Origin: Patescibacteria group bacterium
Lineage (GTDB): Bacteria > Patescibacteriota > Patescibacteriia > JAHJFT01
NCBI GenBank assembly: GCA_028710985.1
Contig: JAQTTB010000002.1
Coordinates: 86,750 to 150,749, forward strand
Reading direction: 5' to 3'
Length of the DNA: 64,000 bases
The notes below the pieces were generated by a model. The model did not search any database, was not told where the DNA came from, and was given only the letters and a program-made list of their open reading frames with translations. Of this stretch, positions 59,084 through 63,712 are shown piece after piece (position 1 is the first letter of the stretch; every line of letters begins with the position of its first letter). The translations under genes and the position numbers were made by a program.

Positions 59084-59230
59084 CGCGTCTCGTCTCCCGC
59101 GGTGCGGGAGACTTTTTTATTTAATATAAGCGAAATTCTTGACTTAATATTACAAACATGCTAGAATTTAGTCAAATTATTCTTCATCGGGCCTGCCTGC
59201 GGCAGGCAGGCTGTAGCTTAATACTCAATT

Positions 59231-59595
59231 AATATTTCATCGGGCTGTAGCGTCCCGACATTCCGCCGCGGGCGGAAGTCGGGACTCATACTTTAGAATA
59301 TTAAAAAAGATGAGAAAAGGATTTGTATATATTTTACAAAGCACCTCTAATGGTAGATTTTATATCGGCTCTAGCACAGATGTAGCGCATCGACTAATTG
59401 ATCATAATTACGGCAGAGTGAAATCAACGAAAAACAAGGGGCCATGGGTATTAAAGCTTGTACAATCCTATGATACAATTACCGAGGCAAAACAAATTGA
59501 ATACAGACTAAAAAAATTAAAGCGTCGAGATTTTATTGAAAAAATCATCGAAGAGGGCCATATTAAGCTAAAGAATATTTCATCGGGCTGTAGCG
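59231..59595 (+). mobile_element. GIY-YIG cassette between 22-bp direct repeats at tRNA-Pro 5' end
   Basis: aatatttcatcgggctgtagcg at 59231-59252 and 59574-59595. Confidence 0.7.
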
Positions 59596-59627
59596 CAGTT
59601 GGTAGCGCGCATCGTTCGGGACGATGA
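59310..59627 (+). CDS. small GIY-YIG nuclease (UPF0213-like)
   Basis: FVYILQS...FYIGS...RL..HN.G...STK..GPW...A.QIE..LK; stop codon lies inside tRNA-Pro. Confidence 0.9.
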   Translation: MRKGFVYILQSTSNGRFYIGSSTDVAHRLIDHNYGRVKSTKNKGPWVLKLVQSYDTITEAKQIEYRLKKLKRRDFIEKIIEEGHIKLKNISSGCSAVGSAHRSGR

Positions 59628-59659
59628 GGCCGCGGGTTCGAGTCCCGCCAGCCCGACCA
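59584..59659 (+). tRNA. tRNA-Pro (CGG)
   Basis: CGGGCTG/CAGCCCG acceptor, loop TTCGGGA, GGTTCGAGTCC, CCA. Confidence 0.95.
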
Positions 59660-59685
59660 TTATAAATACAAATCTATTTCGAAAA

Positions 59686-59824
59686 GGGACTCGAAGGGCG
59701 CGAGAAAATGCGACCCTGGGAGCATTTGGTGCGCAGCGCCCCGGACCGCGAGCCTGCCTGCCGGCAGGCAGGTCGGAGCGAGCGGGAGTCCCGCCAGCCT
59801 GCCTGCCGCAGGCAGACCCGACCA
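59686..59824 (+). repeat. post-tRNA module: antisense T-arm, palindromes, interrupted tRNA-Pro 3' copy
   Basis: gggactcgaa is the reverse complement of the T-arm; gagtcccgccag[19-bp palindrome]cccgacca. Confidence 0.75.
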
Positions 59825-59877
59825 AAAAATAAATAAAACCGCCGCCGGATACCGGGGCGGTTTTTGAATTTAATTCG

Positions 59878-60408
59878 CTAATAATCAATTCCCGCTCTCG
59901 CCGCGACACCCTGATCCATATAATGCTTCACATTCCTCATGTCAGTCACCAGATCCGCGGCCTGCATTATTTCCGGCCGCGCGTTGCGTCCGGTAAGCAC
60001 CAATTCAATGCGCTCCGGCTTGGGCAAAATCAAATCCAGAACATCGGCGAGCGCGACAAGTTCCTGATGCAGAATATTATTAATCTCGTCAAGAATCAAA
60101 ACATCATGCTCGGCGCGTTCCAGGATCTCGCGCGCGATTTCCAATCCCCTTTTTGCTTCCCACCTGTCCTCATCGGTTACCGAAAAATCAAATTGATCCG
60201 TTGCTGGGTTAAACCTCGCGCGGCCGCATGCCCAAAAATCAATTTCGTCTGCAAAACGCTTTTCAAACATCTTTCTTTCCGAATAAAAATCCCCGCCCTT
60301 GTCAAAATACACAATCGCCACGCGCCGTCCTGACTGCACCGCCCTCATCGCAAGTCCGATTGCCGCCGTGGTCTTCCCTTTTCCATCACCAGTATAGACA
60401 TGTATCAT
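59878..60408 (-). CDS. btuR: cob(I)alamin adenosyltransferase CobA/BtuR
   Basis: YTGDGKGKTTAAIG, ILDEI, ELVLTGR, ADLVT.M..VKH, ARAGIDY. Confidence 0.9.
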   Translation of the reverse strand: MIHVYTGDGKGKTTAAIGLAMRAVQSGRRVAIVYFDKGGDFYSERKMFEKRFADEIDFWACGRARFNPATDQFDFSVTDEDRWEAKRGLEIAREILERAEHDVLILDEINNILHQELVALADVLDLILPKPERIELVLTGRNARPEIMQAADLVTDMRNVKHYMDQGVAARAGIDY

Positions 60409-60486
60409 CTCGTAGAGATTATTGTATTAAATTCCTACAAGCCTGCCTGCCGGCAGGCAGGCTACTTCCTACAAGCTACAAGCTCG

Positions 60487-63672: not shown

Positions 63673-63712
63673 CCTGCCTGCCGCCTGCCTGCCGGTAGGC
63701 AGGGCAGGCAGG
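63673..63712. repeat. nested CCTGCC palindrome (one copy inserted in another)
   Basis: cctgcctgccg[cctgcctgccggtaggcagg]gcaggcagg. Confidence 0.85.

What the first reader, a model, noticed from the sequence alone, without database searches (positions are those of the whole stretch)
59188..59824. Mirror-image palindrome insertions at the same acceptor-stem step turn the whole locus into a tRNA-like closed stem
Seen: the upstream fragment CGGG^CTG and the downstream fragment CAG^CCCG are interrupted at exactly opposing positions of the acceptor stem (4/5 and 68/69). Both carry the 19-bp palindrome variant in opposite orientation. So 59188-59213 is the reverse complement of 59795-59820 at 25 of 26 positions and is followed by ACCA. 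Inference: either the ~640-nt transcript ends pair into an extended acceptor stem enclosing nuclease and tRNA, or the palindrome inserts site-specifically (RG^CY-like; also caaG^Ctac at 60441), or one end was copied from the other.
Basis: partly seen in the sequence, partly recalled or inferred. Interest (0 to 1): 0.7.

Follow-up and report, generated by a model that had tools for sequence, protein, structure and literature searches.

The report
Sister palindromes in split tRNA relics
Two copies of a 19-base DNA palindrome sit at mirror positions in the two leftover ends of an old proline-tRNA gene that was split by a small nuclease gene and a replacement tRNA; a related strain lacks both copies, so the "closed stem" is most likely a by-product of how this palindrome spreads, not a working RNA structure.

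Summary
59188-59213 is the reverse complement of 59795-59820 at 25 of 26 positions, and ACCA follows.

The two arms are the 5' and 3' ends of an ancestral tRNA-Pro(CGG) gene. That gene is now split by a GIY-YIG (Ssn-like) cassette, a live tRNA-Pro and a spacer module. A same-family genome, and a roughly 90%-identical strain in another metagenome, run the same promoter straight into an intact tRNA. The strain's 3' relic lacks exactly the 19 bases.

The palindrome (P1) has 36 copies in this 1.03 Mb genome. Eight of them sit inside tRNA relics, a 268-fold enrichment. G^C steps are favoured. Each acceptor half has only one G^C step, so mirror positions follow from stem complementarity.

The only two 19-bp copies in the genome are these two, so they are probably sister copies. 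Two comparable loci are not paired: a Buchananbacteria tRNA-Pro relic carries P1 at step 4/5 only, and G035's relics carry none.

No evidence supports a functional RNA stem, although it is thermodynamically favoured.

Earlier scan reports on this genome already noted the P1, GIY-YIG and tRNA association.

The parts
59139..59167 (+). Ancestral tRNA-Pro promoter (TTGACT, 17 nt, TG-TAGAAT)
   Evidence: 10 of 12 consensus matches with TG. The region 59113-59182 is 83% identical to the stretch directly upstream of an uninterrupted tRNA-Pro in same-family genome G001. It is also conserved in the X4 relative.
59188..59217 (+). 5' relic 'a' of the old tRNA-Pro gene: CGGG + 19-bp P1* + CTGTAGC (tRNA nt 1-4 and 5-11)
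   Evidence: the restored site matches tRNA-Pro nt 1-11 at 100%, with the junction after nt 4.
59192..59210 (+). P1* copy 1, 19-bp centre-deleted palindrome CCTGCCTGC-GGCAGGCAGG
59231..59252 (+). Left 22-bp direct repeat AATATTTCATCGGGCTGTAGCG. It contains 5' relic 'b' (59241-59252), which carries no P1.
   Evidence: family D3: 100% identical to 59574-59595, spacing 343.
59252..59285 (+). P2 hairpin (GTCCCGAC..GTCGGGAC with inner ATTCCGCC..GGCGGAA). It resembles the NTS/SRM sites of Ssn nucleases and lies at the 5' end of the nuclease cassette.
   Evidence: pair I10. Compared by eye with the NTS consensus quoted in PMC11893778. Similar TCCCGAC..GTCGGGA hairpins lie upstream of GIY-YIG homologues in G135, in G000 at C3:274505 and next to tRNA-Pro(GGG).
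59310..59627 (+). GIY-YIG single-domain nuclease ORF (105 aa). It has no stop of its own and runs 44 nt into the live tRNA gene.
   Evidence: ORF; PF01541, E 5.7e-15; 8 paralogues in the genome.
59584..59659 (+). Live tRNA-Pro(CGG)
   Evidence: ARAGORN; Rfam tRNA, 70.9 bits.
59686..59785 (+). Spacer module: reverse complement of the T-loop (GGGACTCGAA) followed by a conserved GC-rich stretch. It is shared with the tRNA-Trp and tRNA-Glu loci and with G035.
   Evidence: pair I19; (alignment with the Trp copy).
59753..59772 (.). Canonical 20-bp P1, a clean insertion relative to the Trp copy of the module
   Evidence: alignment (20-base gap in the Trp copy).
59786..59824 (+). 3' relic of the old tRNA-Pro gene: GAGTCCCGCCAG + 19-bp P1* + CCCGACCA (tRNA nt 57-68 and 69-76)
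   Evidence: 100% over 20 nt, junction after nt 68; the relative's contig covers 59786-60100 with exactly 19 letters left out at 59798.
59798..59816 (-). P1* copy 2, reverse complement of copy 1 except for one base (59816 A)
   Evidence: alignment.
59839..59865 (+). Likely terminator of the old tRNA transcription unit (GC hairpin followed by TTTTT)
   Evidence: Read from the sequence. It was not called by the simple scan.
60442..60461 (.). Further canonical P1 copy with AG^CT flanks, between convergent genes

Best explanation
The two mirror-image inserts are most likely sister copies of one 19-bp sub-lineage of a mobile GC palindrome (P1), pasted at the DNA level into the two leftover ends of an ancestral tRNA-Pro(CGG) gene. 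The 26-bp 'closed stem' would then be a geometric by-product, not a designed RNA structure.

Shown:
- The arms are the true 5' and 3' ends of one old gene, with the same promoter as relatives.
- That gene is now split by a 22-bp-repeat-flanked GIY-YIG cassette, a live tRNA copy and a spacer module.
- Both 19-bp inserts are absent from a ~90%-identical strain. At the 3' relic the difference is a clean 19-bp indel with no target duplication.
- P1 is heavily concentrated in tRNA relics and favours G^C, especially AG^CT, steps.
- Each acceptor half contains exactly one G^C step, and the two steps are opposite each other by base-pairing.
- These are the only two 19-bp copies in the genome, and they have the same orientation relative to the word CGGG..CTG.

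Inferred:
- One copy, or a common local donor, seeded the other by an oriented, flank-matched cut-and-paste of the single-stranded hairpin. This would resemble IS200/IS605- or REP-type 'peel and paste', which also leaves no target duplication.
- The enzyme would be a hairpin-specific nuclease acting in trans, possibly the neighbouring Ssn-type GIY-YIG. It is not identified.

I put about 0.85 on a DNA-level by-product of any kind, and 0.55 on this specific mechanism.
For: Ancestral state:
- G001 matches 59113-59182 at 83%, directly abutting its tRNA-Pro. One search shows the sequence.
- the X4 contig joins 59179 to 59578, skipping 398 bases with one letter between. Another contig covers 59786-60100 with 19 letters left out at 59798.
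- X1-X3, the likely source samples, show no variant forms.

Clean insertions:
- for 8 of 36 P1 copies, removing P1 restores contiguous tRNA sequence. The junctions are Pro 4/5 twice, Pro 68/69, Ala 25/26, Gly 11/12, Glu 22/23, Leu 30/31 and Gln 45/46.
- P1 at 59753 is a 20-base gap in the Trp copy of the module.

Enrichment:
- relics make up 854 of 1,028,589 bases and hold 8 of 36 P1 copies, a 268-fold enrichment.
- 12 of 36 copies lie within 700 bp of a tRNA gene, against 5% of the genome.

Preference:
- G^C in 8 of 36 copies (P 0.005); AG^CT in 4 of 36 (P 3e-6; two of the four share wider flanks).

Sister copies:
- lengths are 33 copies of 20 bp, 2 of 19 bp (both here) and 1 of 21 bp (the tRNA-Pro(GGG) relic, same CGGG^CTGTAGCG step).
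- the alignment shows all three in one orientation.

Variants propagate with their flanks:
- in G059 all 7 fetched 19-bp copies are the same oriented form, and 5 of the 7 share CG..(G/A)AT flanks in that orientation.

Pairs are not special:
- 9 of 46 tRNA genes have relics on both sides.
- The Buchananbacteria locus L028 has P1 at 4/5 only.
- G035 has the same locus architecture without P1.
Against: - No enzyme is tied to P1. The two Y1_Tnp (RAYT-like) ORFs have no P1 within the stretches I read around them.
- P1 occurs in at least 7 of 58 P1-positive genomes that have no hit to this GIY-YIG at E 1e-5, including G002 with 20 copies.
- P1 as a family shows no conserved 5' flank in this genome.
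- A scan of 185,579 species' genomes for CGGG[P1]CTG gave 27 loci, of which only 1 is a tRNA-Pro relic. The 7-nt word is therefore not a general P1 target.
- 167 unoccupied CGGGCTG words remain in the genome, and relic 'b' is unoccupied.
- 19-bp forms occur in other phyla (L019, L024, L026, L030), so a parallel centre deletion is not impossible.
- No intermediate with only one of the two copies was seen.
- An oriented paste and a templated inverted copy predict the same sequence.
Confidence: 0.55

Rival explanations
1. Templated inverted copying. P1* entered one acceptor half only. It was then copied into the other half by replication template switching or short-patch conversion between the two complementary 7-8-nt words (TCGGG/CTG). 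This is the way quasi-palindromes are 'corrected' towards perfect ones.
For: - The two copies are exact complements through the asymmetric centre and are the only 19-bp forms in the genome.
- The same locus holds another short inverted duplication of tRNA sequence, TTCGAGTCCC / GGGACTCGAA (pair I19). Such inverted T-loop copies recur at the Trp, Glu and G035 loci. Inverted copying therefore happens here.
Against: - The microhomologies are only 4-5 and 3 nt, and the arms lie 581 nt apart.
- Other P1 insertions in relics (5 further sites) have no inverted partner.
- P1 at the same 4/5 step in two other loci is unpaired.
Confidence: 0.25
2. Functional RNA closure. The unit is transcribed from the old promoter to the old terminator. 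Its ends pair into a 26-bp acceptor-type stem with 3' ACCA, which would stabilise or direct processing of a nuclease-plus-tRNA precursor.
For: - Promoter and terminator-like hairpin bracket the unit.
- The stem is in both the MFE and the centroid fold.
- The duplex scores -58.0 kcal/mol against -30.0 for the two local hairpins. The whole-transcript MFE is 26.7 kcal/mol worse without long-range pairs.
Against: - Not conserved: the X4 relative lacks both inserts. G035 has the same architecture without them. L028 has only one.
- The only arm difference breaks a pair (C.A).
- The local hairpins would form first during transcription.
- P1 insertions in other relics are not in mirrored stem positions.
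- No Rfam family other than tRNA matches.
Confidence: 0.06
3. Two fully independent insertions of ordinary 20-bp P1 into a hot spot, each later losing one centre base by chance.
For: - G^C preference and the extreme relic enrichment make double hits plausible. The tRNA-Gly(TCC) nest also has P1-type inserts in both relics.
- 19-bp forms arise in other phyla.
Against: If the two 19-bp copies were placed at random among the 36 P1 sites, the chance that they fall on exactly these two sites is 1 in 630. A further factor of one half applies for mirrored centre asymmetry.
Confidence: 0.07

Closest known systems
Ssn single-stranded-DNA nucleases with NTS/SRM hairpin repeats (Chenal et al. 2025, PMC11893778; abstract, first part of Results and searched passages read)
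   Same: - A roughly 90-100-aa single-domain GIY-YIG gene flanked by GC hairpin repeats.
- The repeats are multi-copy in the genome.
- The P2 hairpin directly upstream of the gene resembles the NTS layout: CG(A/T)C, then an ATTCC...GGAA palindrome, then TC.GG.
   Different: - P1 is a different, perfectly symmetric 20-mer with no fixed asymmetric flanks.
- Its link to the nuclease is only statistical. Four of 9 GIY-YIG genes have P1 within about 110 bp (coordinates). The genome-level odds ratio is 4.4, with 7 P1-positive genomes lacking a hit.
- The paper has no occurrence of 'tRNA'.
REP/REPIN elements and their RAYT (Y1 HUH) enzymes; IS200/IS605 'peel and paste' (as summarised in the Discussion of PMC11893778; otherwise recalled)
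   Same: - Short extragenic palindromes in tens of copies.
- Insertion without target duplication.
- Sub-lineages that keep their flanks in a fixed orientation.
- Inverted pairs able to form long hairpins.
   Different: - No GTAG or CGTC-type 5' tag.
- P1 is not next to either Y1_Tnp ORF.
- The identical 20-mer occurs in many families of the class and in other phyla.
- It is strongly concentrated in tRNA relics.
Partial tRNA genes left by elements that integrate into tRNA genes (van der Gulik et al. 2023, PMC9897764; searched passages read)
   Same: One complete and one partial tRNA copy lie at the two ends of inserted DNA. Here a perfect 22-bp direct repeat flanks the GIY-YIG cassette.
   Different: - The inserts are tiny (343 bp and about 130 bp) with no integrase.
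- Relics lie on both sides, so the live gene is nested.
- The relics are then colonised by palindromes.
Quasi-palindrome template-switch mutation
   Same: It makes the two arms of an imperfect inverted repeat identical, including inserted bases.
   Different: It is usually described for arms tens of bases apart. Here the arms are 581 nt apart with 3-5-nt anchors.

Membership tests
Ssn nuclease / SRM system | Single-domain GIY-YIG protein of about 94 aa | tested here: met
   PF01541, E 5.7e-15, residues 3-73 of a 105-aa ORF. About 88 aa lie before the tRNA.
Ssn nuclease / SRM system | Membership of CDD subfamily cd10448 (GIY-YIG_unchar_3) | not testable with these tools
   No CDD library is available. 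NCBIfam gave only a sub-threshold TIGR01453 hit.
Ssn nuclease / SRM system | Cognate NTS/SRM-type hairpin flanking the gene | tested here: inconclusive
   P2 (59252-59285) resembles the NTS consensus by eye. It lies on the 5' side only. P1 does not resemble NTS.
Ssn nuclease / SRM system | Cuts single-stranded DNA next to the hairpin | not testable with these tools
   This needs a biochemical assay.
REP / REPIN with RAYT | Short palindromic repeat in many, mostly extragenic, copies | tested here: met
   36 copies in the genome; 0 in shuffles of the window.
REP / REPIN with RAYT | RAYT gene flanked by its own REPs | tested here: not met
   Two Y1_Tnp ORFs were found. No P1 lies in the stretches read around them. 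The second is flanked by a different GTAG-type hairpin.
REP / REPIN with RAYT | Conserved 5' tetranucleotide tag | tested here: not met
   The flanks of the 36 copies are diverse.
IS200/IS605-type peel-and-paste | Insertion without target-site duplication | tested here: met
   Eight sites restore contiguous tRNA sequence. The relative shows a clean 19-bp indel and the paralogous module a clean 20-bp indel.
IS200/IS605-type peel-and-paste | Fixed target word 5' of the element, in one orientation | tested here: inconclusive
   This holds within sub-lineages: CGGG in 3 of 3 copies here, and CG..(G/A)AT in 5 of 7 copies in G059. It does not hold across the family.
MITE | Terminal inverted repeats plus target-site duplication | tested here: not met
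   No duplication at any of the restored sites.
tRNA-targeting integrative element | Direct repeat of part of the tRNA at both ends of the insert | tested here: met
   A perfect 22-bp repeat at 59231-59252 and 59574-59595 (family D3).
tRNA-targeting integrative element | Integrase or recombinase in the element | tested here: not met
   The only Pfam-supported gene between the repeats is the GIY-YIG.

The most novel reading that the evidence does not exclude
The inverted P1* pair turns the nuclease gene plus tRNA into a 633-bp foldback unit. Its ends pair, in single-stranded DNA or RNA, as a 26-bp tRNA-type closing stem. Closed-stem units are what this genome repeatedly shows pasted into hairpin tips: three live tRNAs sit exactly in the centre of a ~36-bp palindrome inside dead anticodon loops. 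This locus would then be a nuclease-plus-tRNA cassette caught being packaged for that kind of structure-directed transposition.
Probability: 0.1. Interest if true: 0.75.

Novelty: new variant of a known kind. Interest (0 to 1): 0.4.

Why it matters
The locus gives direct filled-against-empty evidence that a 19/20-base perfect palindrome was inserted recently and cleanly, with no target duplication. The evidence comes from a natural relative and from paralogous copies. The exact 20-mer was not found in the 8.4 million papers searched.

It also shows that a striking 'tRNA-like closed stem' can arise automatically. When such an element prefers G^C steps and colonises both halves of a split tRNA gene, the mirror geometry follows. 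That is a caution for reading function into mirror symmetry.

The element's concentration in tRNA relics, beside Ssn-type nuclease cassettes, makes this genome a good place to test what moves such hairpins. That question is still open for REP and NTS repeats alike.

Tried and rejected
- RAYT as the P1 mobiliser. Two Y1_Tnp ORFs were found, but no P1 lies beside them.
- Same cassette in metagenomes (50 loci). The closest homologue is 60% identical. The three closest all abut a tRNA gene, but none carries P1 or tRNA-Pro relics with P1. No intermediate states were found.
- Genome-collection scan for CGGG[P1]CTG. Of 27 loci, 26 are not tRNA-Pro relics by their flanks; seven of the 27 were also checked with ARAGORN. 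Several of the 27 are not P1 at all, and one genome contributes 6 copies of one repeated gene.
- Rfam: nothing but the tRNA.
- Population variants or inversion between the arms in the three likely source runs: none seen in contigs. Contigs drop rare variants.
- RNA evidence. 
- P1 as a hairpin-loop-specific inserter. Flanks are complementary at -1/+1 in 15 of 36 copies, against a 28% background, and never to 3 bp. Relic insertion points fall in stems as well as loops.

Full report
**1. Observation**

The stretch 59188-59213 (CGGG + 19 bases + CTG) is the reverse complement of 59795-59820 (CAG + 19 bases + CCCG) at 25 of 26 positions, and ACCA follows. ARAGORN and Rfam place one live tRNA-Pro(CGG) at 59584-59659 between the arms.

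Taking the 19 bases out of each arm restores tRNA-Pro nt 1-11 and nt 57-76 without gap or duplication. The junctions fall after nt 4 and nt 68. The description is correct.

**2. What the arms are**

The promoter-like site TTGACT-17-TG-TAGAAT (59139-59167) and the 70 bases around it are 83% identical to the DNA that directly precedes an uninterrupted tRNA-Pro in G001, the only same-family genome held.

Contigs of a sediment run (X4) carry a relative about 90% identical in the flanking genes:
- One contig joins 59179 to 59578, skipping 398 bases with one letter between. The promoter therefore runs straight into the tRNA.
- Another covers 59786-60100 with exactly 19 letters left out at 59798.
- Short X4 contigs also cover 59630-59741, so the spacer downstream of the tRNA probably exists there.

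The outer arms are thus the original 5' and 3' ends of one ancestral gene. The 3' relic is older. The 5' relic, the nuclease cassette and both 19-bp inserts arose after the split from that relative. The three runs that probably gave the assembly show no alternative forms.

**3. What split the gene**

A perfect 22-bp direct repeat (AATATTTCATCGGGCTGTAGCG, 59231-59252 and 59574-59595) flanks a 321-bp cassette. The cassette holds a GC hairpin (P2, 59252-59285) and a 105-aa GIY-YIG ORF (PF01541, E 5.7e-15). The ORF has no stop of its own and reads into the tRNA.

The genome has 8 further paralogues, most of them beside tRNA genes. The six closest homologues fetched from the class, and the three closest in metagenomes, all abut a tRNA gene.

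P2 resembles the NTS/SRM hairpins of the Ssn nucleases (PMC11893778). That lead came from earlier notes of this scan.

Nesting of a live tRNA between its own relics is common here. Twenty of 46 tRNA genes have relics, and 9 have them on both sides. G035, a different family, has the same tRNA-Pro(CGG) architecture: 5' relic, hairpins, GIY-YIG, live tRNA, inverted T-loop module, 3' relic. Both of its acceptor halves are intact.

**4. The palindrome**

CCTGCCTGCCGGCAGGCAGG (P1) has 36 copies in this 1.03 Mb genome. It occurs in 58 of 151 sampled genomes of the class, while a reversed control pattern occurs in none. The exact 20-mer was not found in the paper library.

Distribution:
- Eight of the 36 copies lie inside tRNA-derived relics, and removing P1 restores the tRNA sequence.
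- Relics are 0.083% of the genome, so this is a 268-fold enrichment.
- Twelve of 36 copies lie within 700 bp of a tRNA gene, against 5% of the genome.

Flanks:
- G^C in 8 of 36 copies, against 7.7% (P 0.005).
- AG^CT in 4 of 36, against 0.27%. Two of those four share a wider context.

The insertion points in relics fall in stems and in loops.

Within this locus a third, canonical P1 (59753-59772) is a clean 20-base insertion relative to the tRNA-Trp copy of the same spacer module.

**5. Why mirror-image**

The 5' acceptor half CGGGCTG has one G^C step, at 4/5. The 3' half CAGCCCG has one, at 68/69. Because GC is self-complementary, these two steps face each other. Any two insertions at G^C within the 7-nt halves are therefore mirrored. 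Counting all G^C steps in the two relics, two in each, the chance of the mirrored pair is about one in four.

Double occupancy is not exceptional. The tRNA-Gly(TCC) nest also has P1-type inserts in both relics, at non-mirrored positions. With about one relic in five occupied and nine two-sided nests, well under one doubly occupied nest would be expected by chance. One or two is unremarkable.

P1 lies at the same 4/5 step in two other tRNA-Pro 5' relics, and neither has a partner in a 3' half:
- upstream of tRNA-Pro(GGG) in this genome, in a 21-bp form;
- in a Candidatus Buchananbacteria genome, in a 20-bp form with the outer 3' half CAGCCCGA intact.

That was the only tRNA-Pro case among 27 loci matching CGGG[P1]CTG in the 185,579-species collection.

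**6. Why sister copies**

Of the 36 copies, 33 are 20 bp long. The only two 19-bp copies are these two. If the two 19-bp forms were placed at random among the 36 P1 sites, the chance of this placement is 1 in 630.

Their centre asymmetry is mirrored. Relative to the word CGGG..CTG, all three tRNA-Pro copies have one orientation.

Variant forms do propagate:
- G059 carries many 19-bp copies. All 7 that I fetched, from a genome with 29 matches, are the same oriented form. Five of the 7 share CG..(G/A)AT flanks in that orientation.
- G139 and G090 carry an 18-bp form.

I therefore read the pair as one sub-lineage copied locally into the same word on opposite strands.

Whether this was an oriented paste of the hairpin or a replication template switch cannot be told from one case. 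An oriented paste fits the absence of target duplication and the flank-keeping of sub-lineages. A template switch fits the other inverted duplications at this and similar loci (pair I19). I prefer the first, at 0.55 against 0.25.

The enzyme is unknown. Neither Y1_Tnp ORF has P1 beside it. Four of 9 GIY-YIG genes have P1 within about 110 bp (coordinates). P1 and homologues of this nuclease co-occur across 151 genomes with an odds ratio of 4.4. However, 7 P1-positive genomes have no hit, and related genomes are not independent samples.

**7. The RNA reading**

The unit probably is one transcription unit. The long-range stem is in the predicted MFE and centroid structures. It is worth about 27 kcal/mol.

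Against a function:
- It is absent from the close relative, from the Buchananbacteria locus and from the architecturally identical G035 locus.
- Its single arm difference breaks a pair.
- The local hairpins would form first during transcription.
- No RNA data could be obtained.

I give it 0.06.

**8. Comparison and novelty**

The nuclease is Ssn-like. P1 behaves like a REP- or NTS-type mobile hairpin but fails the tests for RAYT association, for a 5' tag and for MITE-type duplication. The relics resemble those left by elements that integrate into tRNA genes (PMC9897764), but here on a miniature scale and without an integrase.

The general association of P1, mini GIY-YIG genes and tRNA relics was already reported by earlier follow-ups of this scan on other parts of this genome.

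New here:
- the filled-against-empty evidence from a natural relative;
- the demonstration that the two copies are sisters;
- the explanation of the mirror geometry.

Noticed in passing
window 59310-59627: The GIY-YIG ORF has no stop codon of its own. It reads 44 nt into the live tRNA-Pro gene (stop TGA at 59625-59627). Several of the closest homologues also abut or nearly abut a tRNA gene, for example L042 (nuclease 480-740, tRNA-Ala from 740) and L110 (nuclease to 1522, tRNA-Ala from 1524).
   Followed up: partly
G000 C3:274000-274108, C3:373792-373905, C3:595350-595458: Three live tRNAs (Arg-TCT, Pro-TGG, Thr-TGT) sit exactly in the centre of a ~36-bp imperfect palindrome (CCYGCCYGCC...GGCRGGCRGG). 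That palindrome itself lies in the anticodon loop of a dead copy of the same tRNA. Contiguous 'empty' copies of the palindrome exist at C3:76210, 178977, 283792 and 614148, and at C8:37690.
   Followed up: partly
window 59686-59785; G000 C3:595925-596012; C3:395600-395680 (minus strand); L109:1650-1765: A module downstream of live tRNAs (Pro, Trp and Glu here; Pro in G035). It starts with the reverse complement of that tRNA's own T-loop, continues with a conserved GC-rich stretch (gggcgcgaga ... gcgcagcgccccggaccgcgag tcggagcgagcgg in the Pro and Trp copies) and ends at the 3' relic. Its origin and function are unexplained.
   Followed up: partly
window 63673-63712: A P1 copy (T variant) is inserted at the exact centre of another P1 copy, giving a nested 40-bp palindrome.
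   Followed up: no
G000 C3:614535-614700: Upstream of another GIY-YIG/tRNA-Gln(CTG) pair lies a nearly complete dead tRNA-Gln. It carries three separate hairpin insertions: in the anticodon loop, in the variable loop (this one is P1) and in the T-loop.
   Followed up: partly
window 59575-59583 and G000 C3:395825-395833 (minus strand): The same 9-mer ATATTTCAT directly precedes the live tRNA-Pro(CGG), its relic 'b' and the live tRNA-Glu(TTC) nested in its dead copy. The replacement tRNA copies may share an upstream piece.
   Followed up: no
G000 whole genome: Twenty of 46 tRNA genes are flanked by same-strand fragments of themselves, mostly 100% identical. Nine have 5' fragments upstream and 3' fragments downstream.
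   Followed up: partly
G059 (L092-L098); G139, G090, G026: Length variants of P1 dominate in some genomes of the class. G059 has an oriented 19-bp form, mostly with CG..GAT flanks. G139, G090 and G026 have an 18-bp form.
   Followed up: partly
L006 (G018:C68:100-450): Another family's tRNA-Pro(CGG) is likewise nested between a 5' relic carrying a small hairpin in its D-loop and a 35-nt 3' relic 27 bp downstream. No nuclease gene lies between them.
   Followed up: no
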